A stretch of DNA of 64,000 nucleotides. It comes from Monocercomonoides exilis PA203. Taxonomy: Eukaryota; Protista; Preaxostyla. The stretch's first letter is position 1; each line of letters starts with the position of its first letter. Shown here in pieces: positions 41,140 to 64,000 of the stretch. The DNA lies in the NCBI GenBank assembly GCA_001643675.2, contig LSRY02000028.1, positions 1,157,068 to 1,221,067 of the forward strand. Reading direction: 5' to 3'. The notes beneath the pieces are model-generated. The model saw nothing but the letters and a program-made list of their open reading frames with translations. It made no database searches and was not told where the DNA came from. Both the position numbers and the translations under genes were made by a program.

Positions 41140-41325
41140 TTAGACATATGCTTCCTCAATTGCATCCAAATATTCAATCATCAATTCATTTTGTTTATCT
41201 CGAGCTGCAGTGCCATATGGCAACCAATATCCTGTAAGTTTACTAATAACTTCAGCCTCCGTAAATGGAACAACATTCCTAGTAGTCCAATTAGCATCAA
41301 TCATTAAATTAATAATGGTTATCAT
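41140..41325 (-). CDS. Small ORF (~61 aa from the ATG at 41325) in the ORF3 position of virus A
   Basis: Reads away from origin A on the minus strand, as ORF3 does from origin B. No visible similarity to B ORF3. Confidence 0.35.
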   Translation of the reverse strand: MITIINLMIDANWTTRNVVPFTEAEVISKLTGYWLPYGTAARDKQNELMIEYLDAIEEAYV

Positions 41326-41367
41326 GACACAGAAGTTGGGGCGTAGTATTACCACAACTTCTGTGTC
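41326..41367 (+). promoter_or_regulatory. Virus A rolling-circle origin stem-loop
   Basis: Perfect 13-bp stem GACACAGAAGTTG / CAACTTCTGTGTC with TAGTATTAC at 41344-41352 on the + (Rep) strand. Confidence 0.93.
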
Positions 41368-41435
41368 TCACACTTTATGGGTTAGCTAATTTAGGCAGTC
41401 ATCATAACACATAAATCACATTTTTAATTGTGCAC

Positions 41436-42408
41436 ATGTCACAGTTGACACTCCAAAGCAGAACTTTCAGAAGTAGAGGATGGGCATTCACACAAAATAA
41501 CTACACGGAAGCAGAAGAACAGGAAATAAAAAGAATAGAATGCACATACAAAGTTGTAGGTAAAGAAGTTGGGGAGATGGGAACACCACATCTACAAGGA
41601 TACATGTACTTCAAGAACGGCAGAGGATTCAGCAGCATTAAGAGAGAGCTTCCCGAACGATGCCATATCGAAGCTACAAAAGGTAGTCCCCAACAGAATA
41701 GAAAATATTGTACAAAAGATAACAACTATTATGAGGAAGGAGAATGCCCAATTCAGGGAAAAAGAACTGATATCGAGAGTGCAGCTGAACTATTAAAAGA
41801 GGGAAAACCTCTTTTAGCCCTAGAAAAGGATCACCGACCAACTTTGATACATTATTGGAGCGGGTTTGAAAAATATAGAAAAGCTATAATAAGAAAGAAA
41901 AAAGGGAAGAAGATTATATGAAAGAGCAACCTTCTGGATTTGGGGGCCTGCAAGAAAATGAAAGACAAACAAAGCTATGGACATAGTTAAAGAAAACCTA
42001 TTGCCAGACGAAGATTACTACGAATGGGTGCCAACAAGCGGATTCATTGACGGGTATGACGGGGAAAGAATCGCTGTGTTTGATGATTTCAAAGCTGAAT
42101 TAATGAATTTCGAAGTTTGGCTGCAAATATGTGACCCATGGCATAATCCAGCTTTTAATGTTAAAGGTGGAACAACTGCATTCACAGCTGACATAGTTTT
42201 ATTTACTTCAATTCAAAGAGCTGAAGACATATGGAAACAAGCTATAGACTTAACAAAAGTGGTTGATGACAATCAAATCACTGACAGAGTAAATCAAATA
42301 AATTTAATAAAACCTAATCCAATGGAAACCGAAGAAACTGAAATTGATATGGATCACCCTACTACTAGATCAACTTTTGAAGAAGATTTAATTTCAAATC
42401 AACTTTAA
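41436..42408 (+). pseudogene. rep: Virus A Rep, disrupted (HUH domain open; frameshift plus nonsense codon in Walker A)
   Basis: Motif I WAFTQNN, motif II PHLQG, motif III YCTK. A +1 frameshift occurs near the A-run at 41898-41903. The second frame reads ATFWIWGPARK*KT (TGA at 41959-41961), then Walker B VFDDF and motif C VLFTSI. Confidence 0.9.
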
Positions 42409-42496
42409 TTTTTTCTTTTAATTTTTTTGTATAGTCACTGTACAGTTCTAACATGCGTATTATTTATTTAATGAATTGTTTCTAAAAAAATAATAA

Positions 42497-43693
42497 TTAT
42501 TCATCATCATGCAAAATATTAAAAGAAGAGGAGGGCCCAGTAGTCGAACCGGAGGCGCCGTCTATACCACGTGGTTCTTTACCGGATGAGCCACTGACCT
42601 CCTCAACAGAATGAGGTTCGATAGACGAACCACAAGCATTACCTGATACTAAATATTTTTCATATTGACCACTTTGCAATGGCATTCCATTAACAAATTT
42701 CCAGTAATTAGTTACATTCCTATTAATACTAACATTCATTGTTTTAATTAAACTGTTTAATGAAGTATGATGATACTTATCCATCACCCCATGACCACCT
42801 AAAAATATAACCCAATAATACCAATGATCTGAATCTTGATAAGCGTTATATCTTGTATGTATATTAGGATAAACACTAAATTTGAACTGTGTTACCCAAT
42901 TAGTTTCTTCGCTAATACGCAAAAGCTTATCCATATATAACTGACAGCCAAACTCTTTTAACCAACGACGTTTAAAACCTTTCACATATCCGGAAGTAAT
43001 CAACCATGGGTATTTAAACATGCTCCAAATATTTAACTGCATATTAGAAACATTACTTATACCCCATTCACGAAACACTAATACTCGTACATATCCACAA
43101 ACTAAATCAGTAATATCACTAGAAGCTGGTGATAAATGAATAGTCAAATTCCACGACTGTTTATATAGTATATAATCAGCTTGTTGTGTAGATACTTCAG
43201 AAGGTGCATCTGCAGAACAATTAAATGCATACCGAGAATCGGAAGGATAGCTCAAACTTGATCCTCCATCTTGATATATAGGTGGATTATATATATTAAA
43301 TGAAAATAAAGAATTAGTAAATGAACAATAAATATGTGGTCTATTTTTATACACCCATCTATTATATCTATACAATCCACGTCTAAACCTAAGCTTTCTT
43401 CTCGTTCTCATAATAACCCGAGCTCTTCTACCCCTACGATGTATTTTTTTTCCTGTACCTGTTTGTCTAGGCTGTTTCCAATTAGGAACACGTCCTTGTC
43501 CTGCACTCTTAATAGCTTTAAACAATTTATGTCTATTATACCATTGCCTAGCCATTTGTATCCCTTTTCTTGCTCCTTTCCATAAATAATAATCACCTGT
43601 AAACTTACCAATTCTAGTAACTACAGGCTTAGCCCTATTCATAAATCTCATTATTGATGCTGCTCTAGATGCGTACGGTACAATCGCTTGCAT
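42497..43693 (-). CDS. cap: Chimeric capsid protein, 398 aa (first 38 aa from virus B, remainder from virus A)
   Basis: Arg-rich arm and intact ORF. Shares YVRVLVFR.WG, LY.DKLLR.SE.TNWVTQFKF and the C-terminal tail with B Cap. The N-terminal 38 aa are identical to B Cap. Confidence 0.85.
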   Translation of the reverse strand: MQAIVPYASRAASIMRFMNRAKPVVTRIGKFTGDYYLWKGARKGIQMARQWYNRHKLFKAIKSAGQGRVPNWKQPRQTGTGKKIHRRGRRARVIMRTRRKLRFRRGLYRYNRWVYKNRPHIYCSFTNSLFSFNIYNPPIYQDGGSSLSYPSDSRYAFNCSADAPSEVSTQQADYILYKQSWNLTIHLSPASSDITDLVCGYVRVLVFREWGISNVSNMQLNIWSMFKYPWLITSGYVKGFKRRWLKEFGCQLYMDKLLRISEETNWVTQFKFSVYPNIHTRYNAYQDSDHWYYWVIFLGGHGVMDKYHHTSLNSLIKTMNVSINRNVTNYWKFVNGMPLQSGQYEKYLVSGNACGSSIEPHSVEEVSGSSGKEPRGIDGASGSTTGPSSSFNILHDDE

Positions 43694-43751
43694 CTTTATG
43701 AAGTGTCAAAAACGGAAATAAAAGATCAATATCTAGACATATGAAATAAAA

Positions 43752-44204
43752 TTATGGCATAAATTGTTCCAATCTTTGCCTAGCATATCTAGGCCTTCCA
43801 TAATACTCCTGAAACAAAGCAACATGATTATTAATTGCTTTATCAAATAATGGCCTAATTCTTTTCATTAACATTCTAGTTCGTGCAGTTTTTTGTCTTT
43901 CTTCACTACCAACAACCCTAAGAAACCTAGGTCTCCTTCTATTCTTAATTCTCATAATTCGCCATATACTATTAAACTGTTCTATAACCTTTTCCCAAAC
44001 ACGGTCAACCTCATTCAAGTACCACCACATATTATTATACTGATGTTGCCAACACCTTGAACCCTCCGGAGCCCAGCTATAATTAACCTCTTCTTGATAC
44101 GTCCATGCATCTATAGGATATATAAATCCAGCCCACCATCCTCGATGTTTCCAATCAACAAGTGTAACTGACCTTGGCATATAGTTAGATCTAACCCTTA
44201 ACAT
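43752..44204 (-). CDS. Virus B ORF3, 150-aa Trp/Arg-rich protein of unknown function (full-length allele)
   Basis: ATG just outside the origin and stop 58 nt before the Cap ATG, so it fills the origin-to-Cap gap. Confidence 0.75.
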   Translation of the reverse strand: MLRVRSNYMPRSVTLVDWKHRGWWAGFIYPIDAWTYQEEVNYSWAPEGSRCWQHQYNNMWWYLNEVDRVWEKVIEQFNSIWRIMRIKNRRRPRFLRVVGSEERQKTARTRMLMKRIRPLFDKAINNHVALFQEYYGRPRYARQRLEQFMP

Positions 44205-44210
44205 TAACCA

Positions 44211-44262
44211 TGACTCAGAAGTTGACTCAGAAGTTGCCGGTAATACTAGGCGGCAACTTCTG
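44211..44262 (-). promoter_or_regulatory. Virus B origin, copy 1: tandem iteron plus stem-loop
   Basis: TGACTCAGAAGT repeated twice (44211-44234). 12-bp stem CAGAAGTTGCCG/CGGCAACTTCTG (44228-44262). Loop GTAATACTA is TAGTATTAC on the - strand (44240-44248). Confidence 0.95.
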
Positions 44263-44314
44263 GGACGTCATGGGATTTTTGATCAAACCCATAATAAAAA
44301 TTATAATTTCCGAG

Positions 44315-45268
44315 ATGTCACAAATAAATAACACACGTTCAAGATGTTGGTGCTTCACAATTAACAACTACACACCAGACGAATATCAGCATGTAACAAA
44401 CATAGAATGCGAATACTTGGTGGTAGGAAAAGAAAAAGGTGCTTTAGGAACGGATCATCTACAAGGTTATATATACTTTAAAAACCAAAGAAGATTCAAT
44501 GCAGTAAAAACATTAATAAGCAACAGGTGCCATTTAGAAACAGCTATAGGAACACCAGAACAAAATAGAACATATTGCACAAAAGAAGGTGATTATTTCG
44601 AGAAGGGAACATTACCTAAACAAGGTAAACGTTCTGATCTAGAAGAAGCAGCAGACCTAATCCTAAAAGGAAAGAAAGTATACGATTTAGCAATGGATCA
44701 TCCGGGATTGGTAGCAAGAAATTTTAAAGGATTACAATATTTAGAGGACCAAACAATTGTTCACAACCCCATCAGAAGAACAACTCCAAGACAAACATAT
44801 TGGATATACGGTGATTCAGAAAAAGGTAAAACCAGACTAGCAATTGATAGACTTCTACAATTAGAAACAGCAATGATGACATCAATATATGACTGGCCAA
44901 AATCTAAGGATTTCATAGATAACTATCACGGCGAAAAACTTGCTATATTCGATGACTTCAGACCGTCAGGATCAATGGACTTTGACATATTCCTAAGAAT
45001 AACTGACCCATGGATAAATCCAACGATAAACGTCAAAGGTGGAACTTCAAGATGGATAGTTGATGTTATATATTTTACTTCTATATCACAGCCTGTCCCG
45101 CTATGGTTAAACGCTAAACCTAACCTAGCTGGTGAACAACAACGACAAATTAAACGACGAATAACCGAAATTAACATCCTAGATGCTATGCATACTGTTA
45201 ATCCAGATAATGACGATGAAACTCAACCTACTCAAGACGAAACATCACATTTTTCTTTACAACTTTAA
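44315..45268 (+). CDS. rep: Virus B Rep, copy 1 (HUH endonuclease plus SF3 helicase, 317 aa from MSQ)
   Basis: Motif I WCFTINN, motif II DHLQG, motif III YCTK, Walker A GDSEKGKT, Walker B IFDDF, motif C IYFTSI, Arg finger QIKRRI. The MSQ start matches virus A Rep. Confidence 0.96.
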   Translation: MSQINNTRSRCWCFTINNYTPDEYQHVTNIECEYLVVGKEKGALGTDHLQGYIYFKNQRRFNAVKTLISNRCHLETAIGTPEQNRTYCTKEGDYFEKGTLPKQGKRSDLEEAADLILKGKKVYDLAMDHPGLVARNFKGLQYLEDQTIVHNPIRRTTPRQTYWIYGDSEKGKTRLAIDRLLQLETAMMTSIYDWPKSKDFIDNYHGEKLAIFDDFRPSGSMDFDIFLRITDPWINPTINVKGGTSRWIVDVIYFTSISQPVPLWLNAKPNLAGEQQRQIKRRITEINILDAMHTVNPDNDDETQPTQDETSHFSLQL

Positions 45269-45377
45269 TTTATATTTTATTTCCATTTAAATTTTTATAC
45301 AATTCATTTAAGTCCCAATAGGGTGCAAGAATGCGTATTTAATATAAATCGATATGTTTTCTAAAAAAAAAAAATTA

Positions 45378-46586
45378 TTAATCATCATGTAAAATAGTAA
45401 AAGAAGAGGAGGGCCCAGGAATAGAACCGGAGGCGCCATCACTACCACGTGGTTCATTACCGGTTCCACCACTGACCTCCTCGTTATCTTCTTCCATTGA
45501 AATTGAAGTAGGTAAAGGACCTGCAGGTCCAGGTTCTCCAACAGGTTGGTAAAGTTTACTATCAGCATCTGTCAAATTCATACCTGTAGTATATCTATAA
45601 TAACCTATTTGATCGTACTTAACCCTAACAGTTAAATTCGGATCAGCACCACCAGATTCCCAAAGGTTATGAAACTTGTCTTCTGCACCAAAACCACCTA
45701 TTAAATAGATAGTATAAAACCACCTATTAGTTTCTACATCATTAGTATATCTATTCTCTAAATGCGGATAAATATTAAACTTAAACTGCGTAACCCAATT
45801 AGTATCCTCACTTACTCTTAACAATTTATCCAGATATAGCTGAACATTGTAGTTTGCACACCACATTCTTTTAAATCTCTTAACATAACCCGAAGTCAAA
45901 AGATAAGGTCTATTAAACATAGACCATAAATAATTACTAATAGTAGGATTACTACCCCATTTCCTAAATACTAGAACTCTCACATATGCATGCGTATATG
46001 AACTAGGTTCTAATCCAGTAGATCCATATTTAGTAAATGCAAATAAAAAGTTATAATTTATCTTATAACACATATAATTAGTCTTAACATTATCTAACAT
46101 AGAAGGCATAGACGAACTTACAGTTATAGTTGTAATAGAATTACTAGGATATGTAATTTGTAACGTAGGTAGCATAGGCATATTATACACATAAAACACA
46201 TCTGTTGAACTATAAACCTTACGATAATCAACAGGTCTATTCTTGTACAACCAAGACAAATATCTATACTTCCTACGTCTATATCTACGTCTTCTCCTAA
46301 TACGATTCTTTCTTCCTCCTCTCCTACGACGCCTAATTTTTAATCCAGTTCCTGTCTGCTTTATCTGTTTCCAATTTTGAACTCGTCCCTGACCACTAGC
46401 TCGAATAGCTTTATATAACTTATTCCTATGATACATTCCTCTTAACATATTAATACCAGCTTTAGCCCCTCTCCATAAATAATAATCACCTGTAAACTTA
46501 CCAATTCTAGTAACTACAGGCTTAGCCCTATTCATAAATCTCATTATTGATGCTGCTCTAGATGCGTACGGTACAATCGCTTGCAT
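45378..46586 (-). CDS. cap: Virus B capsid protein, copy 1 (402 aa)
   Basis: Arg-rich arm RRRRRGGRKNRIRRRRRYRRRKY, then a beta-strand-like Y/T/V-rich core. Convergent with Rep. Confidence 0.9.
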   Translation of the reverse strand: MQAIVPYASRAASIMRFMNRAKPVVTRIGKFTGDYYLWRGAKAGINMLRGMYHRNKLYKAIRASGQGRVQNWKQIKQTGTGLKIRRRRRGGRKNRIRRRRRYRRRKYRYLSWLYKNRPVDYRKVYSSTDVFYVYNMPMLPTLQITYPSNSITTITVSSSMPSMLDNVKTNYMCYKINYNFLFAFTKYGSTGLEPSSYTHAYVRVLVFRKWGSNPTISNYLWSMFNRPYLLTSGYVKRFKRMWCANYNVQLYLDKLLRVSEDTNWVTQFKFNIYPHLENRYTNDVETNRWFYTIYLIGGFGAEDKFHNLWESGGADPNLTVRVKYDQIGYYRYTTGMNLTDADSKLYQPVGEPGPAGPLPTSISMEEDNEEVSGGTGNEPRGSDGASGSIPGPSSSFTILHDD

Positions 46587-46760
46587 CTTTATGAAGTGTC
46601 AAAAACGGAAATAAAAGATCAATATCTAGACATATGAAATAAAATTATGGCATAAATTGTTCCAATCTTTGCCTAGCATATCTAGGCCTTCCATAATACT
46701 CCTGAAACAAAGCAACATGATTATTAATTGCTTTATCAAATAATGGCCTAATTCTTTTCA

Positions 46761-47096
46761 TTAACATTCTAGTTCGTGCAGTTTTTGTCTTTCTTCACTA
46801 CCAACAACCCTAAGAAACCTAGGTCTCCTTCTATTCTTAATTCTCATAATTCGCCATATACTATTAAACTGTTCTATAACCTTTTCCCAAACACGGTCAA
46901 CCTCATTCAAGTACCACCACATATTATTATACTGATGTTGCCAACACCTTGAACCCTCCGGAGCCCAGCTATAATTAACCTCTTCTTGATACGTCCATGC
47001 ATCTATAGGATATATAAATCCAGCCCACCATCCTCGATGTTTCCAATCAACAAGTGTAACTGACCTTGGCATATAGTTAGATCTAACCCTTAACAT
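46761..47096 (-). CDS. Virus B ORF3, 111-aa frameshifted allele
   Basis: Identical to the 150-aa copy except a T5 run in place of T6. Confidence 0.65.
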   Translation of the reverse strand: MLRVRSNYMPRSVTLVDWKHRGWWAGFIYPIDAWTYQEEVNYSWAPEGSRCWQHQYNNMWWYLNEVDRVWEKVIEQFNSIWRIMRIKNRRRPRFLRVVGSEERQKLHELEC

Positions 47097-47119
47097 TAAC
47101 CATGACTCAGAAGTTGACT

Positions 47120-47154
47120 CAGAAGTTGCCGGTAATACTAGGCGGCAACTTCTG
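47120..47154 (-). promoter_or_regulatory. Virus B origin stem-loop, copy 2
   Basis: Identical stem; nonanucleotide at 47132-47140. Confidence 0.95.
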
Positions 47155-47206
47155 GGACGTCATGGGATTTTTGATCAAACCCATAATAAAAATTATAATT
47201 TCCGAG

Positions 47207-48160
47207 ATGTCACAAATAAATAACACACGTTCAAGATGTTGGTGCTTCACAATTAACAACTACACACCAGACGAATATCAGCATGTAACAAACATAGAAT
47301 GCGAATACTTGGTGGTAGGAAAAGAAAAAGGTGCTTTAGGAACGGATCATCTACAAGGTTATATATACTTTAAAAACCAAAGAAGATTCAATGCAGTAAA
47401 AACATTAATAAGCAACAGGTGCCATTTAGAAACAGCTATAGGAACACCAGAACAAAATAGAACATATTGCACAAAAGAAGGTGATTATTTCGAGAAGGGA
47501 ACATTACCTAAACAAGGTAAACGTTCTGATCTAGAAGAAGCAGCAGACCTAATCCTAAAAGGAAAGAAAGTATACGATTTAGCAATGGATCATCCGGGAT
47601 TGGTAGCAAGAAATTTTAAAGGATTACAATATTTAGAGGACCAAACAATTGTTCACAACCCCATCAGAAGAACAACTCCAAGACAAACATATTGGATATA
47701 CGGTGATTCAGAAAAAGGTAAAACCAGACTAGCAATTGATAGACTTCTACAATTAGAAACAGCAATGATGACATCAATATATGACTGGCCAAAATCTAAG
47801 GATTTCATAGATAACTATCACGGCGAAAAACTTGCTATATTCGATGACTTCAGACCGTCAGGATCAATGGACTTTGACATATTCCTAAGAATAACTGACC
47901 CATGGATAAATCCAACGATAAACGTCAAAGGTGGAACTTCAAGATGGATAGTTGATGTTATATATTTTACTTCTATATCACAGCCTGTCCCGCTATGGTT
48001 AAACGCTAAACCTAACCTAGCTGGTGAACAACAACGACAAATTAAACGACGAATAACCGAAATTAACATCCTAGATGCTATGCATACTGTTAATCCAGAT
48101 AATGACGATGAAACTCAACCTACTCAAGACGAAACATCACATTTTTCTTTACAACTTTAA
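47207..48160 (+). CDS. rep: Virus B Rep, copy 2
   Basis: Protein identical to copy 1. Confidence 0.96.
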   Translation: MSQINNTRSRCWCFTINNYTPDEYQHVTNIECEYLVVGKEKGALGTDHLQGYIYFKNQRRFNAVKTLISNRCHLETAIGTPEQNRTYCTKEGDYFEKGTLPKQGKRSDLEEAADLILKGKKVYDLAMDHPGLVARNFKGLQYLEDQTIVHNPIRRTTPRQTYWIYGDSEKGKTRLAIDRLLQLETAMMTSIYDWPKSKDFIDNYHGEKLAIFDDFRPSGSMDFDIFLRITDPWINPTINVKGGTSRWIVDVIYFTSISQPVPLWLNAKPNLAGEQQRQIKRRITEINILDAMHTVNPDNDDETQPTQDETSHFSLQL

Positions 48161-48269
48161 TTTATATTTTATTTCCATTTAAATTTTTATACAATTCATT
48201 TAAGTCCCAATAGGGTGCAAGAATGCGTATTTAATATAAATCGATATGTTTTCTAAAAAAAAAAAATTA

Positions 48270-49478
48270 TTAATCATCATGTAAAATAGTAAAAGAAGAG
48301 GAGGGCCCAGGAATAGAACCGGAGGCGCCATCACTACCACGTGGTTCATTACCGGTTCCACCACTGACCTCCTCGTTATCTTCTTCCATTGAAATTGAAG
48401 TAGGTAAAGGACCTGCAGGTCCAGGTTCTCCAACAGGTTGGTAAAGTTTACTATCAGCATCTGTCAAATTCATACCTGTAGTATATCTATAATAACCTAT
48501 TTGATCGTACTTAACCCTAACAGTTAAATTCGGATCAGCACCACCAGATTCCCAAAGGTTATGAAACTTGTCTTCTGCACCAAAACCACCTATTAAATAG
48601 ATAGTATAAAACCACCTATTAGTTTCTACATCATTAGTATATCTATTCTCTAAATGCGGATAAATATTAAACTTAAACTGCGTAACCCAATTAGTATCCT
48701 CACTTACTCTTAACAATTTATCCAGATATAGCTGAACATTGTAGTTTGCACACCACATTCTTTTAAATCTCTTAACATAACCCGAAGTCAAAAGATAAGG
48801 TCTATTAAACATAGACCATAAATAATTACTAATAGTAGGATTACTACCCCATTTCCTAAATACTAGAACTCTCACATATGCATGCGTATATGAACTAGGT
48901 TCTAATCCAGTAGATCCATATTTAGTAAATGCAAATAAAAAGTTATAATTTATCTTATAACACATATAATTAGTCTTAACATTATCTAACATAGAAGGCA
49001 TAGACGAACTTACAGTTATAGTTGTAATAGAATTACTAGGATATGTAATTTGTAACGTAGGTAGCATAGGCATATTATACACATAAAACACATCTGTTGA
49101 ACTATAAACCTTACGATAATCAACAGGTCTATTCTTGTACAACCAAGACAAATATCTATACTTCCTACGTCTATATCTACGTCTTCTCCTAATACGATTC
49201 TTTCTTCCTCCTCTCCTACGACGCCTAATTTTTAATCCAGTTCCTGTCTGCTTTATCTGTTTCCAATTTTGAACTCGTCCCTGACCACTAGCTCGAATAG
49301 CTTTATATAACTTATTCCTATGATACATTCCTCTTAACATATTAATACCAGCTTTAGCCCCTCTCCATAAATAATAATCACCTGTAAACTTACCAATTCT
49401 AGTAACTACAGGCTTAGCCCTATTCATAAATCTCATTATTGATGCTGCTCTAGATGCGTACGGTACAATCGCTTGCAT
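48270..49478 (-). CDS. cap: Virus B capsid protein, copy 2
   Basis: Protein identical to copy 1. Confidence 0.9.
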   Translation of the reverse strand: MQAIVPYASRAASIMRFMNRAKPVVTRIGKFTGDYYLWRGAKAGINMLRGMYHRNKLYKAIRASGQGRVQNWKQIKQTGTGLKIRRRRRGGRKNRIRRRRRYRRRKYRYLSWLYKNRPVDYRKVYSSTDVFYVYNMPMLPTLQITYPSNSITTITVSSSMPSMLDNVKTNYMCYKINYNFLFAFTKYGSTGLEPSSYTHAYVRVLVFRKWGSNPTISNYLWSMFNRPYLLTSGYVKRFKRMWCANYNVQLYLDKLLRVSEDTNWVTQFKFNIYPHLENRYTNDVETNRWFYTIYLIGGFGAEDKFHNLWESGGADPNLTVRVKYDQIGYYRYTTGMNLTDADSKLYQPVGEPGPAGPLPTSISMEEDNEEVSGGTGNEPRGSDGASGSIPGPSSSFTILHDD

Positions 49479-49652
49479 CTTTATGAAGTGTCAAAAACGG
49501 AAATAAAAGATCAATATCTAGACATATGAAATAAAATTATGGCATAAATTGTTCCAATCTTTGCCTAGCATATCTAGGCCTTCCATAATACTCCTGAAAC
49601 AAAGCAACATGATTATTAATTGCTTTATCAAATAATGGCCTAATTCTTTTCA

Positions 49653-49988
49653 TTAACATTCTAGTTCGTGCAGTTTTTGTCTTTCTTCACTACCAACAAC
49701 CCTAAGAAACCTAGGTCTCCTTCTATTCTTAATTCTCATAATTCGCCATATACTATTAAACTGTTCTATAACCTTTTCCCAAACACGGTCAACCTCATTC
49801 AAGTACCACCACATATTATTATACTGATGTTGCCAACACCTTGAACCCTCCGGAGCCCAGCTATAATTAACCTCTTCTTGATACGTCCATGCATCTATAG
49901 GATATATAAATCCAGCCCACCATCCTCGATGTTTCCAATCAACAAGTGTAACTGACCTTGGCATATAGTTAGATCTAACCCTTAACAT
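49653..49988 (-). CDS. Virus B ORF3, 111-aa allele
   Basis: T5 allele. Confidence 0.65.
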   Translation of the reverse strand: MLRVRSNYMPRSVTLVDWKHRGWWAGFIYPIDAWTYQEEVNYSWAPEGSRCWQHQYNNMWWYLNEVDRVWEKVIEQFNSIWRIMRIKNRRRPRFLRVVGSEERQKLHELEC

Positions 49989-50011
49989 TAACCATGACTC
50001 AGAAGTTGACT

Positions 50012-50046
50012 CAGAAGTTGCCGGTAATACTAGGCGGCAACTTCTG
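50012..50046 (-). promoter_or_regulatory. Virus B origin stem-loop, copy 3
   Basis: Identical stem; nonanucleotide at 50024-50032. Confidence 0.95.
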
Positions 50047-50098
50047 GGACGTCATGGGATTTTTGATCAAACCCATAATAAAAATTATAATTTCCGAG

Positions 50099-51052: not shown

Positions 51053-51162
51053 TTTATATTTTATTTCCATTTAAATTTTTATACAATTCATTTAAGTCCC
51101 AATAGGGTGCAAGAATGCGTATTTAATATAAATCGATATGTTTTCTAAAAAAAAAAAAATTA

Positions 51163-52881: not shown

Positions 52882-52904
52882 TAACCATGACTCAGAAGTT
52901 GACT

Positions 52905-53945: not shown

Positions 53946-54055
53946 TTTATATTTTATTTCCATTTAAATTTTTATACAATTCATTTAAGTCCCAATAGGG
54001 TGCAAGAATGCGTATTTAATATAAATCGATATGTTTTCTAAAAAAAAAAAAATTA

Positions 54056-55264: not shown

Positions 55265-55438
55265 CTTTATGAAGTGTCAAAAACGGAAATAAAAGATCAA
55301 TATCTAGACATATGAAATAAAATTATGGCATAAATTGTTCCAATCTTTGCCTAGCATATCTAGGCCTTCCATAATACTCCTGAAACAAAGCAACATGATT
55401 ATTAATTGCTTTATCAAATAATGGCCTAATTCTTTTCA

Positions 55439-55774
55439 TTAACATTCTAGTTCGTGCAGTTTTTGTCTTTCTTCACTACCAACAACCCTAAGAAACCTAG
55501 GTCTCCTTCTATTCTTAATTCTCATAATTCGCCATATACTATTAAACTGTTCTATAACCTTTTCCCAAACACGGTCAACCTCATTCAAGTACCACCACAT
55601 ATTATTATACTGATGTTGCCAACACCTTGAACCCTCCGGAGCCCAGCTATAATTAACCTCTTCTTGATACGTCCATGCATCTATAGGATATATAAATCCA
55701 GCCCACCATCCTCGATGTTTCCAATCAACAAGTGTAACTGACCTTGGCATATAGTTAGATCTAACCCTTAACAT
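55439..55774 (-). CDS. Virus B ORF3, 111-aa allele
   Basis: T5 allele. Confidence 0.65.
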   Translation of the reverse strand: MLRVRSNYMPRSVTLVDWKHRGWWAGFIYPIDAWTYQEEVNYSWAPEGSRCWQHQYNNMWWYLNEVDRVWEKVIEQFNSIWRIMRIKNRRRPRFLRVVGSEERQKLHELEC

Positions 55775-55797
55775 TAACCATGACTCAGAAGTTGACT

Positions 55798-55832
55798 CAG
55801 AAGTTGCCGGTAATACTAGGCGGCAACTTCTG
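55798..55832 (-). promoter_or_regulatory. Virus B origin stem-loop, copy 5
   Basis: Identical stem; nonanucleotide at 55810-55818. Confidence 0.95.
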
Positions 55833-55883
55833 GGACGTCATGGGATTTTGATCAAACCCATAATAAAAATTATAATTTCCGAG

Positions 55884-56837
55884 ATGTCACAAATAAATAA
55901 CACACGTTCAAGATGTTGGTGCTTCACAATTAACAACTACACACCAGACGAATATCAGCATGTAACAAACATAGAATGCGAATACTTGGTGGTAGGAAAA
56001 GAAAAAGGTGCTTTAGGAACGGATCATCTACAAGGTTATATATACTTTAAAAACCAAAGAAGATTCAATGCAGTAAAAACATTAATAAGCAACAGGTGCC
56101 ATTTAGAAACAGCTATAGGAACACCAGAACAAAATAGAACATATTGCACAAAAGAAGGTGATTATTTCGAGAAGGGAACATTACCTAAACAAGGTAAACG
56201 TTCTGATCTAGAAGAAGCAGCAGACCTAATCCTAAAAGGAAAGAAAGTATACGATTTAGCAATGGATCATCCGGGATTGGTAGCAAGAAATTTTAAAGGA
56301 TTACAATATTTAGAGGACCAAACAATTGTTCACAACCCCATCAGAAGAACAACTCCAAGACAAACATATTGGATATACGGTGATTCAGAAAAAGGTAAAA
56401 CCAGACTAGCAATTGATAGACTTCTACAATTAGAAACAGCAATGATGACATCAATATATGACTGGCCAAAATCTAAGGATTTCATAGATAACTATCACGG
56501 CGAAAAACTTGCTATATTCGATGACTTCAGACCGTCAGGATCAATGGACTTTGACATATTCCTAAGAATAACTGACCCATGGATAAATCCAACGATAAAC
56601 GTCAAAGGTGGAACTTCAAGATGGATAGTTGATGTTATATATTTTACTTCTATATCACAGCCTGTCCCGCTATGGTTAAACGCTAAACCTAACCTAGCTG
56701 GTGAACAACAACGACAAATTAAACGACGAATAACCGAAATTAACATCCTAGATGCTATGCATACTGTTAATCCAGATAATGACGATGAAACTCAACCTAC
56801 TCAAGACGAAACATCACATTTTTCTTTACAACTTTAA
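55884..56837 (+). CDS. rep: Virus B Rep, copy 5
   Basis: Identical from the MSQ start. A 1-nt deletion upstream affects only the doubtful N-terminal extension. Confidence 0.95.
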   Translation: MSQINNTRSRCWCFTINNYTPDEYQHVTNIECEYLVVGKEKGALGTDHLQGYIYFKNQRRFNAVKTLISNRCHLETAIGTPEQNRTYCTKEGDYFEKGTLPKQGKRSDLEEAADLILKGKKVYDLAMDHPGLVARNFKGLQYLEDQTIVHNPIRRTTPRQTYWIYGDSEKGKTRLAIDRLLQLETAMMTSIYDWPKSKDFIDNYHGEKLAIFDDFRPSGSMDFDIFLRITDPWINPTINVKGGTSRWIVDVIYFTSISQPVPLWLNAKPNLAGEQQRQIKRRITEINILDAMHTVNPDNDDETQPTQDETSHFSLQL

Positions 56838-56947
56838 TTTATATTTTATTTCCATTTAAATTTTTATACAATTCATTTAAGTCCCAATAGGGTGCAAGAA
56901 TGCGTATTTAATATAAATCGATATGTTTTCTAAAAAAAAAAAAATTA

Positions 56948-58157
56948 TTAATCATCATGTAAAATAGTAAAAGAAGAGGAGGGCCCAGGAATAGAACCGG
57001 AGGCGCCATCACTACCACGTGGTTCATTACCGGTTCCACCACTGACCTCCTCGTTATCTTCTTCCATTGAAATTGAAGTAGGTAAAGGACCTGCAGGTCC
57101 AGGTTCTCCAACAGGTTGGTAAAGTTTACTATCAGCATCTGTCAAATTCATACCTGTAGTATATCTATAATAACCTATTTGATCGTACTTAACCCTAACA
57201 GTTAAATTCGGATCAGCACCACCAGATTCCCAAAGGTTATGAAACTTGTCTTCTGCACCAAAACCACCTATTAAATAGATAGTATAAAACCACCTATTAG
57301 TTTCTACATCATTAGTATATCTATTCTCTAAATGCGGATAAATATTAAACTTAAACTGCGTAACCCAATTAGTATCCTCACTTACTCTTAACAATTTATC
57401 CAGATATAGCTGAACATTGTAGTTTGCACACCACATTCTTTTAAATCTCTTAACATAACCCGAAGTCAAAAGATAAGGTCTATTAAACATAGACCATAAA
57501 TAATTACTAATAGTAGGATTACTACCCCATTTCCTAAATACTAGAACTCTCACATATGCATGCGTATATGAACTAGGTTCTAATCCAGTAGATCCATATT
57601 TAGTAAATGCAAATAAAAAGTTATAATTTATCTTATAACACATATAATTAGTCTTAACATTATCTAACATAGAAGGCATAGACGAACTTACAGTTATAGT
57701 TGTAATAGAATTACTAGGATATGTAATTTGTAACGTAGGTAGCATAGGCATATTATACACATAAAACACATCTGTTGAACTATAAACCTTACGATAATCA
57801 ACAGGTCTATTCTTGTACAACCAAGACAAATATCTATACTTCCTACGTCTATATCTACGTCTTCTCCTAATACGATTCTTTCTTCCTCCCTCTCCTACGA
57901 CGCCTAATTTTTAATCCAGTTCCTGTCTGCTTTATCTGTTTCCAATTTTGAACTCGTCCCTGACCACTAGCTCGAATAGCTTTATATAACTTATTCCTAT
58001 GATACATTCCTCTTAACATATTAATACCAGCTTTAGCCCCTCTCCATAAATAATAATCACCTGTAAACTTACCAATTCTAGTAACTACAGGCTTAGCCCT
58101 ATTCATAAATCTCATTATTGATGCTGCTCTAGATGCGTACGGTACAATCGCTTGCAT
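56948..58157 (-). CDS. cap: Virus B capsid, copy 5, split by a 1-nt insertion (real frameshift or consensus error)
   Basis: An extra C near 57890 (CTTCCTCCCTCTCC versus CTTCCTCCTCTCC) splits the ORF into 96 and 293 aa. Confidence 0.8.
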
Positions 58158-58331
58158 CTTTATGAAGTGTCAAAAACGGAAATAAAAGATCAATATCTAG
58201 ACATATGAAATAAAATTATGGCATAAATTGTTCCAATCTTTGCCTAGCATATCTAGGCCTTCCATAATACTCCTGAAACAAAGCAACATGATTATTAATT
58301 GCTTTATCAAATAATGGCCTAATTCTTTTCA

Positions 58332-58667
58332 TTAACATTCTAGTTCGTGCAGTTTTTGTCTTTCTTCACTACCAACAACCCTAAGAAACCTAGGTCTCCT
58401 TCTATTCTTAATTCTCATAATTCGCCATATACTATTAAACTGTTCTATAACCTTTTCCCAAACACGGTCAACCTCATTCAAGTACCACCACATATTATTA
58501 TACTGATGTTGCCAACACCTTGAACCCTCCGGAGCCCAGCTATAATTAACCTCTTCTTGATACGTCCATGCATCTATAGGATATATAAATCCAGCCCACC
58601 ATCCTCGATGTTTCCAATCAACAAGTGTAACTGACCTTGGCATATAGTTAGATCTAACCCTTAACAT
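58332..58667 (-). CDS. Virus B ORF3, 111-aa allele
   Basis: T5 allele. Confidence 0.65.
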   Translation of the reverse strand: MLRVRSNYMPRSVTLVDWKHRGWWAGFIYPIDAWTYQEEVNYSWAPEGSRCWQHQYNNMWWYLNEVDRVWEKVIEQFNSIWRIMRIKNRRRPRFLRVVGSEERQKLHELEC

Positions 58668-58690
58668 TAACCATGACTCAGAAGTTGACT

Positions 58691-58725
58691 CAGAAGTTGC
58701 CGGTAATACTAGGCGGCAACTTCTG
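58691..58725 (-). promoter_or_regulatory. Virus B origin stem-loop, copy 6
   Basis: Identical stem; nonanucleotide at 58703-58711. Confidence 0.95.
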
Positions 58726-58777
58726 GGACGTCATGGGATTTTTGATCAAACCCATAATAAAAATTATAATTTCCGAG

Positions 58778-59731
58778 ATGTCACAAATAAATAACACACG
58801 TTCAAGATGTTGGTGCTTCACAATTAACAACTACACACCAGACGAATATCAGCATGTAACAAACATAGAATGCGAATACTTGGTGGTAGGAAAAGAAAAA
58901 GGTGCTTTAGGAACGGATCATCTACAAGGTTATATATACTTTAAAAACCAAAGAAGATTCAATGCAGTAAAAACATTAATAAGCAACAGGTGCCATTTAG
59001 AAACAGCTATAGGAACACCAGAACAAAATAGAACATATTGCACAAAAGAAGGTGATTATTTCGAGAAGGGAACATTACCTAAACAAGGTAAACGTTCTGA
59101 TCTAGAAGAAGCAGCAGACCTAATCCTAAAAGGAAAGAAAGTATACGATTTAGCAATGGATCATCCGGGATTGGTAGCAAGAAATTTTAAAGGATTACAA
59201 TATTTAGAGGACCAAACAATTGTTCACAACCCCATCAGAAGAACAACTCCAAGACAAACATATTGGATATACGGTGATTCAGAAAAAGGTAAAACCAGAC
59301 TAGCAATTGATAGACTTCTACAATTAGAAACAGCAATGATGACATCAATATATGACTGGCCAAAATCTAAGGATTTCATAGATAACTATCACGGCGAAAA
59401 ACTTGCTATATTCGATGACTTCAGACCGTCAGGATCAATGGACTTTGACATATTCCTAAGAATAACTGACCCATGGATAAATCCAACGATAAACGTCAAA
59501 GGTGGAACTTCAAGATGGATAGTTGATGTTATATATTTTACTTCTATATCACAGCCTGTCCCGCTATGGTTAAACGCTAAACCTAACCTAGCTGGTGAAC
59601 AACAACGACAAATTAAACGACGAATAACCGAAATTAACATCCTAGATGCTATGCATACTGTTAATCCAGATAATGACGATGAAACTCAACCTACTCAAGA
59701 CGAAACATCACATTTTTCTTTACAACTTTAA
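58778..59731 (+). CDS. rep: Virus B Rep, copy 6
   Basis: Protein identical to copy 1. Confidence 0.96.
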   Translation: MSQINNTRSRCWCFTINNYTPDEYQHVTNIECEYLVVGKEKGALGTDHLQGYIYFKNQRRFNAVKTLISNRCHLETAIGTPEQNRTYCTKEGDYFEKGTLPKQGKRSDLEEAADLILKGKKVYDLAMDHPGLVARNFKGLQYLEDQTIVHNPIRRTTPRQTYWIYGDSEKGKTRLAIDRLLQLETAMMTSIYDWPKSKDFIDNYHGEKLAIFDDFRPSGSMDFDIFLRITDPWINPTINVKGGTSRWIVDVIYFTSISQPVPLWLNAKPNLAGEQQRQIKRRITEINILDAMHTVNPDNDDETQPTQDETSHFSLQL

Positions 59732-59823
59732 TTTATATTTTATTTCCATTTAAATTTTTATACAATTCATTTAAGTCCCAATAGGGTGCAAGAATGCGTA
59801 TTTAATATAAATCGATATGTTTT

Positions 59824-61047
59824 CTAAAAAAAAAAATTATTAATCATCATGTAAAATAGTAAAAGAAGAGGAGGGCCCAGGAATAGAACCGGAGGCGCCA
59901 TCACTACCACGTGGTTCATTACCGGTTCCACCACTGACCTCCTCGTTATCTTCTTCCATTGAAATTGAGTAGGTAAAGGACCTGCAGGTCCAGGTTCTCC
60001 AACAGGTTGGTAAAGTTTACTATCAGCATCTGTCAAATTCATACCTGTAGTATATCTATAATAACCTATTTGATCGTACTTAACCCTAACAGTTAAATTC
60101 GGATCAGCACCACCAGATTCCCAAAGGTTATGAAACTTGTCTTCTGCACCAAAACCACCTATTAAATAGATAGTATAAAACCACCTATTAGTTTCTACAT
60201 CATTAGTATATCTATTCTCTAAATGCGGATAAATATTAAACTTAAACTGCGTAACCCAATTAGTATCCTCACTTACTCTTAACAATTTATCCAGATATAG
60301 CTGAACATTGTAGTTTGCACACCACATTCTTTTAAATCTCTTAACATAACCCGAAGTCAAAAGATAAGGTCTATTAAACATAGACCATAAATAATTACTA
60401 ATAGTAGGATTACTACCCCATTTCCTAAATACTAGAACTCTCACATATGCATGCGTATATGAACTAGGTTCTAATCCAGTAGATCCATATTTAGTAAATG
60501 CAAATAAAAAGTTATAATTTATCTTATAACACATATAATTAGTCTTAACATTATCTAACATAGAAGGCATAGACGAACTTACAGTTATAGTTGTAATAGA
60601 ATTACTAGGATATGTAATTTGTAACGTAGGTAGCATAGGCATATTATACACATAAAACACATCTGTTGAACTATAAACCTTACGATAATCAACAGGTCTA
60701 TTCTTGTACAACCAAGACAAATATCTATACTTCCTACGTCTATATCTACGTCTTCTCCTAATACGATTCTTTCTTCCTCCTCTCCTACGACGCCTAATTT
60801 TTAATCCAGTTCCTGTCTGCTTTATCTGTTTCCAATTTTGAACTCGTCCCTGACCACTAGCTCGAATAGCTTTATATAACTTATTCCTATGATACATTCC
60901 TCTTAACATATTAATACCAGCTTTAGCCCCTCTCCATAAATAATAATCACCTGTAAACTTACCAATTCTAGTAACTACAGGCTTAGCCCTATTCATAAAT
61001 CTCATTATTGATGCTGCTCTAGATGCGTACGGTACAATCGCTTGCAT
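59824..61047 (-). CDS. cap: Virus B capsid, copy 6, with a frameshifted C-terminus (1-nt deletion near 59968)
   Basis: GAAATTGAGT versus GAAATTGAAGT in the other copies. The tail changes after PAGPLPT. Confidence 0.8.
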   Translation of the reverse strand: MQAIVPYASRAASIMRFMNRAKPVVTRIGKFTGDYYLWRGAKAGINMLRGMYHRNKLYKAIRASGQGRVQNWKQIKQTGTGLKIRRRRRGGRKNRIRRRRRYRRRKYRYLSWLYKNRPVDYRKVYSSTDVFYVYNMPMLPTLQITYPSNSITTITVSSSMPSMLDNVKTNYMCYKINYNFLFAFTKYGSTGLEPSSYTHAYVRVLVFRKWGSNPTISNYLWSMFNRPYLLTSGYVKRFKRMWCANYNVQLYLDKLLRVSEDTNWVTQFKFNIYPHLENRYTNDVETNRWFYTIYLIGGFGAEDKFHNLWESGGADPNLTVRVKYDQIGYYRYTTGMNLTDADSKLYQPVGEPGPAGPLPTQFQWKKITRRSVVEPVMNHVVVMAPPVLFLGPPLLLLFYMMINNFFF

Positions 61048-61105
61048 CTTTATGAAGTGTCAAAAACGGAAATAAAAGATCAATATCTAGACATATGAAA
61101 TAAAA

Positions 61106-61558
61106 TTATGGCATAAATTGTTCCAATCTTTGCCTAGCATATCTAGGCCTTCCATAATACTCCTGAAACAAAGCAACATGATTATTAATTGCTTTATCAA
61201 ATAATGGCCTAATTCTTTTCATTAACATTCTAGTTCGTGCAGTTTTTTGTCTTTCTTCACTACCAACAACCCTAAGAAACCTAGGTCTCCTTCTATTCTT
61301 AATTCTCATAATTCGCCATATACTATTAAACTGTTCTATAACCTTTTCCCAAACACGGTCAACCTCATTCAAGTACCACCACATATTATTATACTGATGT
61401 TGCCAACACCTTGAACCCTCCGGAGCCCAGCTATAATTAACCTCTTCTTGATACGTCCATGCATCTATAGGATATATAAATCCAGCCCACCATCCTCGAT
61501 GTTTCCAATCAACAAGTGTAACTGACCTTGGCATATAGTTAGATCTAACCCTTAACAT
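61106..61558 (-). CDS. Virus B ORF3, 150-aa full-length allele (terminal copy)
   Basis: T6 allele; protein identical to 43752-44204. Confidence 0.75.
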   Translation of the reverse strand: MLRVRSNYMPRSVTLVDWKHRGWWAGFIYPIDAWTYQEEVNYSWAPEGSRCWQHQYNNMWWYLNEVDRVWEKVIEQFNSIWRIMRIKNRRRPRFLRVVGSEERQKTARTRMLMKRIRPLFDKAINNHVALFQEYYGRPRYARQRLEQFMP

Positions 61559-61564
61559 TAACCA

Positions 61565-61592
61565 TGACTCAGAAGTTGACTCAGAAGTTGCC
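61565..61592 (-). promoter_or_regulatory. Truncated seventh virus B origin (iterons and left stem arm only) abutting the telomere
   Basis: TGACTCAGAAGTTGACTCAGAAGTTGCC is followed by AGGTTAGGG instead of GGTAATACTA. Confidence 0.93.
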
Positions 61593-64000
61593 AGGTTAGG
61601 GTTAGGGTTAGGTTAGGGTTAGGGTTAGGGTTAGGGTTAGGGTTAGGGTTAGGGTTAGGTTAGGGTTAGGGTTAGGTTAGGGTTAGGTTAGGGTTAGGGT
61701 TAGGGTTAGGGTTAGGGTTAGGGTTAGGGTTAGGGTTAGGGTTAGGGTTAGGGTTAGGGTTAGGGTTAGGGTTAGGGTTAGGGTTAGGGTTAGGGTTAGG
61801 GTTAGGGTTAGGGTTAGGGTTAGGGTTAGGGTTAGGGTTAGGGGTTAGGGTTAGGGTTAGGGTTAGGGTTAGGGTTAGGGTTAGGTTAGGGTTAGGGTTA
61901 GGGTTAGGGTTAGGGTTAGGGTTAGGTTAGGGTTAGGGTTAGGGTTAGGTTAGGGTTAGGGTTAGGGTTAGGGTTAGGGTTAGGGTTAGGGTTAGGGTTA
62001 GGGTTAGGGTTAGGGTTAGGGTTAGGGTTAGGGTTAGGGTTAGGGTTAGGGTTAGGGTTAGGGTTAGGGTTAGGGTTAGGGTTAGGGTTAGGGTTAGGGT
62101 TAGGGTTAGGGTTAGGGTTAGGGTTAGGGTTAGGGTTAGGGTTAGGGTTAGGGTTAGGGTTAGGGTTAGGGTTAGGGTTAGGGTTAGGGTTAGGGTTAGG
62201 GGTTAGGGTTAGGGTTAGGGTTAGGGTTAGGTTAGGGTTAGGGTTAGGGTTAGGGTTAGGGTTAGGGGTTAGGGTTAGGGTTAGGGTTAGGGTTAGGGTT
62301 AGGGTTAGGGTTAGGGTTAGGGGTTAGGGTTAGGGTTAGGGTTAGGGTTAGGGTTAGGGTTAGGGTTAGGGTTAGGGTTAGGGTTAGGGTTAGGGTTAGG
62401 GTTAGGGTTAGGGTTAGGGTTAGGGTTAGGGTTAGGGTTAGGGTTAGGGTTAGGGTTAGGGTTAGGGTTAGGGTTAGGGTTAGGGTTAGGGTTAGGGTTA
62501 GGGTTAGGGTTAGGGTTAGGGTTAGGGTTAGGGTTAGGGTTAGGGTTAGGGTTAGGGTTAGGGTTAGGGTTAGGGTTAGGGTTAGGGTTAGGGTTAGGGT
62601 TAGGGTTAGGGTTAGGGTTAGGGTTAGGGTTAGGGTTAGGGTTAGGGTTAGGGTTAGGGTTAGGGTTAGGGTTAGGGTTAGGGTTAGGGGTTAGGGTTAG
62701 GGTTAGGGTTAGGGTTAGGGTTAGGGTTAGGGTTAGGGTTAGGGTTAGGGTTAGGGTTAGGGTTAGGGTTAGGGTTAGGGTTAGGGTTAGGGTTAGGGTT
62801 AGGGTTAGGGTTAGGTTAGGGTTAGGGTTAGGGTTAGGGTTAGGGTTAGGGTTAGGGTTAGGGTTAGGGTTAGGGTTAGGTTAGGGTTAGGGTTAGGGTT
62901 AGGGTTAGGGTTAGGGTTAGGGTTAGGGTTAGGGTTAGGGTTAGGGTTAGGGTTAGGGTTAGGGTTAGGGTTAGGGTTAGGGTTAGGGTTAGGGTTAGGG
63001 TTAGGGTTAGGGTTAGGGTTAGGGTTAGGGTTAGGGTTAGGGTTAGGGTTAGGGTTAGGGTTAGGGTTAGGGTTAGGGTTAGGGTTAGGGTTAGGGTTAG
63101 GGTTAGGGTTAGGGTTAGGGTTAGGGTTAGGGTTAGGGTTAGGGTTAGGGTTAGGGTTAGGGTTAGGGTTAGGGTTAGGGTTAGGGTTAGGGTTAGGGTT
63201 AGGGTTAGGGTTAGGGTTAGGGTTAGGGTTAGGGTTAGGGTTAGGGTTAGGGTTAGGGTTAGGGTTAGGGTTAGGGTTAGGGTTAGGGTTAGGGTTAGGG
63301 TTAGGGTTAGGGTTAGGGTTAGGGTTAGGGTTAGGGTTAGGGTTAGGGTTAGGGTTAGGGTTAGGGTTAGGGTTAGGGTTAGGGTTAGGGTTAGGGTTAG
63401 GGTTAGGGTTAGGGTTAGGGTTAGGGTTAGGGTTAGGGTTAGGGTTAGGGTTAGGGTTAGGGTTAGGGTTAGGGTTAGGGTTAGGGTTAGGGTTAGGGTT
63501 AGGGGTTAGGGTTAGGGTTAGGGTTAGGGTTAGGGTTAGGGTTAGGGTTAGGGTTAGGGTTAGGGTTAGGGTTAGGGTTAGGGTTAGGGTTAGGGTTAGG
63601 GTTAGGGTTAGGGTTAGGGTTAGGGTTAGGGTTAGGGTTAGGGTTAGGGGTTAGGGTTAGGGTTAGGGTTAGGAGGGTTAGGGTTAGGGTTAGGGTTAAG
63701 TGGGGTTAGGTTAGGGTTAGGGTTAGGGTTAGGGTTAGGGTTAGGGGTTAGGGTTAGGGTTAGGGTTAGTTAGGGTTAGGGTTAGGGTTAAGGGTTAGGG
63801 TTAGGTTAAGGTTAGGGTTAGGGTTAGGAAGGGTTAGGGTTAGGGTTAGGGTTAGGGGTTAGGGTTAGGGTTAGGGTTCAGGGTTAGGGTTAGGGTTAGG
63901 TTAGGGTTAAGGTTAGGTTAGTTAGGGTTAAGGTTAGATGTGGTTAGGGTTAGGGTTGGAGGCGAGGGTTGAAGGGCAAGGTTAGGGTTAGGTTAGGGTA
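61593..64000 (+). repeat. Telomeric (TTAGGG)n tract, ~2.4 kb, chromosome end
   Basis: G-rich strand runs 5'->3' toward the window end. Occasional TTAGG/TTAGGGG variants and a noisy last ~350 bp. Confidence 0.99.

What the first reader, a model, noticed from the sequence alone, without database searches (positions are those of the whole stretch)
41140..64000. Telomere-capped tandem CRESS-DNA provirus: a chromosome arm ends in ~6 intact ssDNA virus genomes
Seen: the terminal ~20 kb before the telomere is entirely viral. Six origin-to-origin units of 2891-2893 bp carry identical Rep proteins, Cap is intact in at least four, and every origin is intact. The differences I could find between copies are single-base indels, mostly in homopolymers. 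Established: head-to-tail multimers of circovirus and geminivirus genomes act as infectious clones, because Rep nicks one origin and releases a unit circle at the next. Endogenous CRESS elements are usually decayed Rep fragments. Inference: this is a very recent or actively homogenised provirus that could reactivate, parked in subtelomeric chromatin. The closest analogy I know is telomere-integrated HHV-6; I know of no described CRESS equivalent.
Basis: partly seen in the sequence, partly recalled or inferred. Interest (0 to 1): 0.95.

Follow-up and report, generated by a model that had tools for sequence, protein, structure and literature searches.

The report
Virus array capped by a telomere
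As assembled, a gut protist's chromosome ends in six nearly identical copies of a small DNA virus joined straight to the telomere, within three bases of where the virus's own enzyme is predicted to cut, likely because the cell sealed a viral replication product onto the chromosome end.

Summary
Observation confirmed, with corrections. The last 20.4 kb before the telomere hold two different unclassified cressdnaviruses. Virus A is one broken copy (41142-43579). It joins in frame, inside cap, to 6.2 head-to-tail copies of virus B (43580-61592), which differ by no substitution. The telomere starts 0-3 nt from the predicted Rep nick in a seventh origin (chance about 0.2%). The host is the oxymonad Monocercomonoides exilis. 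Contigs from four runs of one sample give B about 6 times single-copy depth, join A to B and A to a host repeat; none shown reaches the telomere. Six further M. exilis contigs carry related capsid genes, five in multiple copies, interleaved in a tree with faecal Banfec and Sigmofec viruses. Best model: a rolling-circle concatemer recombined into the older element and its Rep-cut end was healed by telomerase, in a host reported to lack end joining. Tandem CRESS proviruses (Giardia) and a subtelomeric one (BdDV-1) are published; direct telomere capping at the nick and an oxymonad host were not found in ten searches. Reactivation is untested; depth shows no excess free double-stranded copies.

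The parts
39620..41141 (.). Host flank: cluster of very high-copy non-coding repeats, one with 31-nt terminal inverted repeats (40085-40544); virus A abuts the last one
   Evidence: depth 100-200 times single copy; inverted repeats
41142..43579 (.). Virus A: single, broken copy of a second cressdnavirus, Rep closest to Banfec virus 4 type
   Evidence: single-copy depth 105.5 and 0 differences in contig 41121-43608 of X1
41142..41325 (-). ORF3 of virus A, cut off by the host repeat
   Evidence: weak tblastn match (E 0.19) to the ORF3-like N-terminus of P0118, and position; inference
41327..41366 (+). Origin stem-loop of virus A, nonamer at 41344 on the Rep-coding strand
   Evidence: fold z -6.8
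41436..42408 (+). rep of virus A, broken by a frame change near 41860-41915 and a stop at 41959-41961 in Walker A
   Evidence: sequence matched letter for letter by contigs
42497..43693 (-). Chimeric cap, open 398 aa: first 38 codons identical to virus B, remainder from virus A
43579..43580 (.). In-register A-to-B crossover inside cap (62% ungapped identity on the A side, 100% on the B side)
   Evidence: crossed by a single-copy contig in X1
43580..61592 (.). Virus B array, 6.23 head-to-tail units of 2892-2893 bp
   Evidence: head-to-tail joint in 4 of 4 runs
43752..44204 (-). ORF3 of virus B, 150 aa (also 61106-61558; 111 aa in the five copies between); conserved in the family, predicted all-helical, function unknown
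   Evidence: no fold match
44228..44262 (-). Origin stem-loop of virus B with a 12-bp direct repeat beside it; repeated at 47120, 50012, 52905, 55798, 58691; predicted nick between 44241 and 44242
   Evidence: nick position recalled from other cressdnaviruses
44315..45268 (+). rep of virus B, 317 aa, HUH endonuclease plus SF3 helicase; identical copies at 47207, 50099, 52992, 55884, 58778
   Evidence: Pfam Viral_Rep E 2e-22, RNA_helicase E 2e-7
45378..46586 (-). cap of virus B, 402 aa, arginine-rich N-terminus, predicted single jelly roll; intact also at 48270, 51163, 54056
56948..58157 (-). cap of unit 5, frameshifted near 57888 in the assembly (real or read error, not resolved)
59824..61047 (-). 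cap of unit 6, C-terminus altered by an indel near 59968 in the assembly (real or read error, not resolved)
61578..61595 (.). Truncated seventh origin and telomere junction: viral identity ends at 61592, one unassigned base, then telomere; projected nick after 61595
61594..64000 (+). Telomere, about 403 TTAGGG units, 360 perfect

Best explanation
The assembled chromosome end of this oxymonad carries 6.2 head-to-tail copies of one cressdnavirus behind a broken copy of another, likely formed when a rolling-circle product of virus B recombined into the older element A and the end cut by the viral Rep was likely healed by telomerase. Shown: the two viruses, the in-frame crossover in cap, the head-to-tail units, copy number about 6, the junction 0-3 nt from the projected nick. 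Inferred: B's nonamer strand runs from telomere to centromere, so a rolling-circle tail has its Rep-bound 5' end at the nick; copying that tail (or a fork running off a nick in an already integrated array) leaves a plus-strand 3' end at the nick whose last three bases are in phase with the telomere repeat. A host without end joining can keep such DNA only by recombination at one end and telomerase at the other, which puts the virus at a chromosome end with no integrase and no viral telomeric repeat. The array then seems to be inherited mostly quietly.
For: Junction position: 7 of 2893 positions lie within 3 nt of the nick, 0.24%. No substitutions between units, as from one round of copying. 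Crossover in register and in frame between homologous caps. Contig depth 6.06x for the part present 6 times and 6.54x for the contig that includes the extra partial unit (6.36 expected). A single-copy contig runs from 21-30 bases of host repeat through A into B. M. exilis is reported to lack non-homologous end joining and to have homologous recombination (PMC6759080, passage). The same layout, one distinct virus then a run of another, is suggested by protein accession order on a 789,622 bp contig. Endogenous caps are interleaved with faecal viruses in a tree, so several viruses were captured separately.
Against: All four runs are one sample and X1 may be the source of the window. One junction only, and noticed after the fact; a 12-bp hairpin could also be cut by host nucleases. 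One base at the junction fits neither virus nor a perfect repeat. Virus A has its nonamer on the opposite strand, so it does not fit the same polarity (56 of 57 Rep-bearing loci with this origin type share A's polarity). Whether the other six contigs carry their viruses at chromosome ends could not be tested. The nick position is recalled, not measured for this Rep.
Confidence: 0.6

Rival explanations
1. Host-only route: one copy of B integrated near the end, host recombination (unequal crossover or break-induced copying of an excised circle) amplified it, and the origin hairpin broke as a fragile site and was healed, with no role for Rep.
For: The junction is also at the top of the hairpin's left arm; the host has homologous recombination; subtelomeres amplify repeats readily (own knowledge).
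Against: Needs more steps; zero substitutions and exact unit length fit one copying event; several unrelated viruses show multi-copy runs while single-copy A does not.
Confidence: 0.15
2. Assembly artefact at the end: the array is chromosomal but the telomere (or the host arm) was mis-joined, or a chimeric read created the junction.
For: No contig shown spans the telomere junction or the host repeat cluster; the assembly has demonstrable homopolymer errors in the array.
Against: Depth matches the assembled copy number and the extra partial unit; the array has one single-copy entry and no listed exit into other unique DNA, which suits an exit into a filtered simple repeat; a mis-join would not favour the nick; telomere length 2.4 kb matches the reported mean of about 2.1 kb.
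Confidence: 0.1
3. Regulated latency: terminal arrays are part of the viral life cycle, and Rep releases unit circles from them under stress (not exclusive of the best explanation).
For: Six intact rep genes and origins, at least four intact caps; multi-copy runs of at least four other viruses at 4.7-9.2 times single-copy depth or by accession runs; multimers act as infectious clones in other CRESS families (own knowledge).
Against: Depth leaves no room for more than a fraction of a free double-stranded copy per genome in three runs; copy ratio is similar in runs dated 2016 and 2022, whereas an active Rep would be expected to shorten the array; A is decayed.
Confidence: 0.15

Closest known systems
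Tandem integrated Vilyaviridae genomes in Giardia duodenalis (contig VSRU01000012.1; PMC7493932, passages and one supplementary legend seen)
   Same: Whole CRESS genomes in a 10 kb tandem inside the genome of a gut metamonad, resolved by long reads
   Different: Described with neighbouring host sequence; 'telomer' has 0 hits in main text and the searchable supplements; different virus lineage and host
BdDV-1 of Batrachochytrium dendrobatidis (10.1101/2023.03.16.532857, passages and Discussion seen)
   Same: Intact, expressed rep and cap integrated in a subtelomere of a microbial eukaryote
   Different: One 4.4 kb locus 21.2 kb from the telomere, no tandem, authors report it lacks rolling-circle motifs; here six intact origins and direct telomere contact
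Banfec virus 4 and 5, Sigmofec virus UA08Rod_11492, Dipodfec viruses (unclassified Cressdnaviricota)
   Same: Rep B 43-48% and Rep A 57-73% identical to Banfec 4/5-type Reps, one clade at SH-aLRT 99; same Cap family and ORF3-like sequence
   Different: Deposited as free viruses with no known host; in Banfec 4 and 5 the ORF3-like part is annotated as the N-terminus of the capsid
Telomere-integrated herpesviruses HHV-6 and Marek's disease virus (recalled)
   Same: A whole virus genome forms the chromosome end and is inherited
   Different: They carry their own telomeric repeat arrays and integrate by homology with the telomere; this unit has none
Rolling-circle copying of DNA circles at yeast telomeres ('roll and spread', recalled; look-up failed)
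   Same: A circle copied repeatedly yields a head-to-tail array at a chromosome end
   Different: There the circle carries telomeric repeats; here the homology is an older viral element and the end is set by a viral nick site

Membership tests
Cressdnaviricota | Rep with HUH endonuclease motifs I-III | tested here: met
   Pfam Viral_Rep E 2e-22; motifs in alignment; solved Reps E 2e-54
Cressdnaviricota | Superfamily 3 helicase domain | tested here: met
   Pfam RNA_helicase E 2e-7; Walker A, B and arginine finger visible
Cressdnaviricota | Nonamer at the apex of a stem-loop | tested here: met
   z -6.8 against shuffles; the same origin pattern lies beside a Rep in 57 of 67 public loci
Cressdnaviricota | Single jelly-roll capsid protein | tested here: met
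   predicted only: model pLDDT 67, best matches STNV and geminivirus capsids, CRESS capsids in BFVD
Cressdnaviricota | Encapsidated circular single-stranded genome | not testable with these tools
   head-to-tail continuity implies a circular template; no virion data
Circoviridae | Circovirus-type capsid family and genome of about 1.7-2.1 kb (size recalled) | tested here: not met
   0 of 11 caps match any capsid Pfam; unit is 2.9 kb with a third gene
Vilyaviridae, Naryaviridae, Nenyaviridae, Kirkoviridae, Redondoviridae | Capsid homologous to family members | tested here: not met
   profile search of 1.84 billion representatives gives 13 hits: 10 M. exilis, 1 Sigmofec, 2 unnamed
Vilyaviridae, Naryaviridae, Nenyaviridae, Kirkoviridae, Redondoviridae | Rep falls inside the family clade | not tested
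   the tree held no classified members of these families
Telomere-integrating herpesvirus type | Viral telomeric repeat arrays that pair with the host telomere | tested here: not met
   one 6-mer in telomere phase on the plus strand of a unit, no tract
Reactivatable provirus | Release of unit circles and transcription | tested here: inconclusive
   no depth excess; contigs cannot show RNA or single-stranded DNA

The most novel reading that the evidence does not exclude
Oxymonad cressdnaviruses integrate by a route without integrase: Rep-cut rolling-circle concatemers are captured by recombination with older viral copies and capped by telomerase, so several chromosome ends of M. exilis are stacks of successive viruses, the outermost array intact and able to release circles. 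This would be a telomere-based latency for single-stranded DNA viruses and the first virus lineage of oxymonads.
Probability: 0.3. Interest if true: 0.92.

Novelty: new variant of a known kind. Interest (0 to 1): 0.78.

Why it matters
How CRESS viruses integrate is usually called accidental (BdDV-1 Discussion). A junction that sits on the Rep nick and a crossover that sits in frame in an older element give a concrete, testable route, and the same genome appears to hold six more loci on which to test it at once. It also assigns a probable host (oxymonads) to orphan faecal viruses, and offers an intact virus in a cultured amitochondriate eukaryote for which no virus was found described in the papers searched.

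Tried and rejected
No whole genome was held, so other chromosome ends could not be read. Cap-profile scans of viral and metagenome contigs found no relative (12 and 190 pattern hits, none confirmed). The origin-pattern scans gave 67 loci, 57 with a distant Rep, none with this Cap or ORF3. No RNA holder listed. No telomere loose end among the rows shown: uninformative. The culture study that reports no viral genomes removed host-mapping DNA reads first, so it cannot see this virus (PMC12308965, passages). ORF3: no Pfam, atlas or fold match. No viral remnant left of the host repeats, so A is truncated, not merely interrupted within the window. Earlier scan notes: nothing. Rejected: amplification concatemer (depth equals assembled copy number); contaminant virus (single-copy A joined to a host repeat, many M. 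exilis loci); one element spread by the host (eight distinct caps); telomere-homology integration. The Rep tree is the quick version only. Gene identifiers were absent from four supplements of PMC8767320; the supplement of PMC6759080, which lists genes possibly derived from integrated viruses, could not be read and may already flag some of these genes.
Full report
What is in the sequence. The window ends in about 403 TTAGGG repeats (61594-64000) in chromosome-end orientation. Upstream lie six origins 2892-2893 bp apart; aligned to unit 1, the other five units differ by 0, 1, 1, 3 and 3 single-base indels and no internal substitution. Each unit has rep on the plus strand (317 aa in 6 of 6), cap on the minus strand (402 aa in 4 of 6) and a third minus-strand gene, ORF3. 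Rep matches Pfam Viral_Rep and an SF3 helicase and solved Reps. Cap matches no Pfam family (0 of 11 family members) but folds, at modest confidence (pLDDT 67), as a jelly roll nearest to STNV, geminivirus and CRESS capsids. The origin folds far better than shuffles (z -6.8), and the same pattern lies beside a Rep in 57 of 67 public loci.

Two viruses, not one. Identity to the repeat begins abruptly at 43580. From 41142 to 43579 lies virus A, with its own origin, a rep broken by a frame change and by a stop in Walker A, and a cap 48% identical to that of B. The cap frame is open across the switch: the first 38 codons are identical to B, the rest is A, with 62% ungapped identity just on the A side. 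This is an in-register crossover between homologous genes. A's left end abuts a very high-copy host repeat and no viral remnant lies further left.

The telomere junction. Viral identity ends at 61592, at the top of the left arm of a seventh origin; one unassigned base follows, then the telomere. With the nick placed as in other cressdnaviruses (recalled), the cut projects to after 61595. The junction is therefore 3 nt short of the nick, or exactly on it if the single extra base is a read error, since the three viral bases before the nick are in phase with the telomere repeat. About 0.24% of positions in a unit lie this close. This is one junction, noticed after the fact.

Host. The window's Rep record lies on a 1,221,067 bp contig; a named M. 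exilis gene model on a contig of the same length matches two stretches of Rep A letter for letter, and other named models on it match Cap B pieces. The host is thus the oxymonad Monocercomonoides exilis. A paper on this species reports TTAGGG telomeres of mean length about 2.1 kb, loss of non-homologous end joining and presence of homologous recombination (PMC6759080, passages).

Read evidence. Four runs hold the stretch, all one sample, kept as contigs; X1 may be the source of the window. In X1, single-copy host contigs have depth 97-105, the contig over A 105.5, and the contigs over B 639.6 and 690: 6.06 and 6.54 times A, against 6.0 and 6.36 expected from the assembly. X2 and X3 give 5.6 and 6.0 (from the longer listed contigs only); X4 is too fragmented. 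The tool warns that contig depth is a rough measure. The head-to-tail joint appears in 4 of 4 runs. One X1 contig runs 41121-43608 with no difference, so A's lesions are real, A joins B, and A joins a host repeat by 21 bases (30 in X3, just under the tool's 31-base rule). At two homopolymers the contigs disagree with several assembled copies, so the copies may be fully identical.

A family of loci. Cap homologues are rare: 14 hits and 13 by profile among 1.84 billion representatives, 10 of them M. exilis. They lie on six further contigs. Listed accessions form runs: 7 plus 1 distinct virus in front on 789,622 bp; 7 on 1,025,343; at least 5 on 98,982; 4 on 433,378; 2 on 233,226; 1 on 1,346,700 (lists are cut at four accessions per protein). 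In X1, four other virus-like contigs have 9.2, 6.5, 4.7 and 1.1 times single-copy depth. In a quick tree the endogenous caps are interleaved with Banfec 4, Banfec 5 and Sigmofec capsids; Rep B groups with Banfec 4/5-type Reps at SH-aLRT 99, sister to Dipodfec viruses (70 rows, quick tree). All are unclassified Cressdnaviricota. One passage gives a coyote faecal origin for banfec virus 3 (PMC11281440); the rodent faecal origin of Sigmofec and Dipodfec viruses is recalled. Whether these loci are terminal could not be tested.

How it most likely works. B's nonamer strand runs from telomere to centromere. A rolling-circle tail of B has its Rep-bound 5' end at the nick; once copied, the plus strand ends at the nick with a free 3' end, a telomerase substrate. 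The other end recombined in register with resident A, replacing whatever was distal. A fork running off a nick in an already integrated, longer array gives the same end, and the two cannot be told apart here. Without end joining, this pair of events is the plain way to keep such DNA, and it yields a terminal array with no integrase and no viral telomeric tract. Confidence 0.6. Against generality, A has the opposite origin polarity, as do 56 of 57 comparable loci. Rivals: host-only amplification and hairpin breakage (0.15), mis-joined end (0.1), regulated latency with release of circles (0.15, compatible with the best model). Depth gives no sign of free double-stranded copies; expression and single-stranded DNA are untested.

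Comparison with what is known. Whole and tandem CRESS integrations are published for Giardia and Entamoeba (PMC7493932, passages and one supplementary legend) and a subtelomeric one for Batrachochytrium. Ten searches found no paper on a telomere-capped CRESS array or on CRESS viruses of oxymonads; four of them returned nothing at all, and most subscription journals are not searched. Term look-ups found 0 hits for virus or viral in PMC8767320 and PMC10703272, one generic mention of genes from integrated viruses in PMC6759080 whose supplement could not be read, and no mention of Monocercomonoides or telomeres in PMC9615429 or of telomeres or tandems in PMC3198968.

Verdict. The array is real and chromosomal (about 0.9); its direct telomere contact is probably real (about 0.85). 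It is a new variant of a known kind. What lifts it is the nick-centred junction, the crossover into an older virus, and six sister loci that make the model testable from existing data. Interest 0.78.

Noticed in passing
window 38289-39260 (+): Open 323-aa IS1595/Merlin-type transposase (Pfam E 3.5e-22), about 15-20 related copies by summed depth, 1.9 kb proximal to virus A.
   Followed up: partly
window 41327-41366 and 44228-44262: Viruses A and B share origin stem arms but have the nonamer on opposite strands relative to rep; B is the unusual one (1 of 57 comparable loci).
   Followed up: partly
window 43752-44204 (-): ORF3 is a conserved helical protein of this virus family; in Banfec 4 and 5 and in several M. 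exilis gene models it forms the N-terminus of the capsid, so a spliced or fused long capsid form is possible.
   Followed up: partly
L005 871-930 and L027 1185-1244: Two public CRESS-like contigs with the same origin pattern carry ten perfect telomere-type repeats between their genes; not of this Cap family.
   Followed up: partly
window 44226-44260, contigs of X1-X3: Another element elsewhere in the sample, about single copy, shares the B-type origin stem-loop but has different flanks (table 7).
   Followed up: no
cluster of P0235 and of P0234: Eight unnamed 56-aa ENA proteins cluster with a Cap B fragment, and a 48-aa Methanogenium protein with another cap; probably clustering noise, unexplained.
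   Followed up: no
window 34385-35769 (-): Member of a multi-copy host gene family (summed depth 10-20 times single copy), no clear Pfam match.
   Followed up: no
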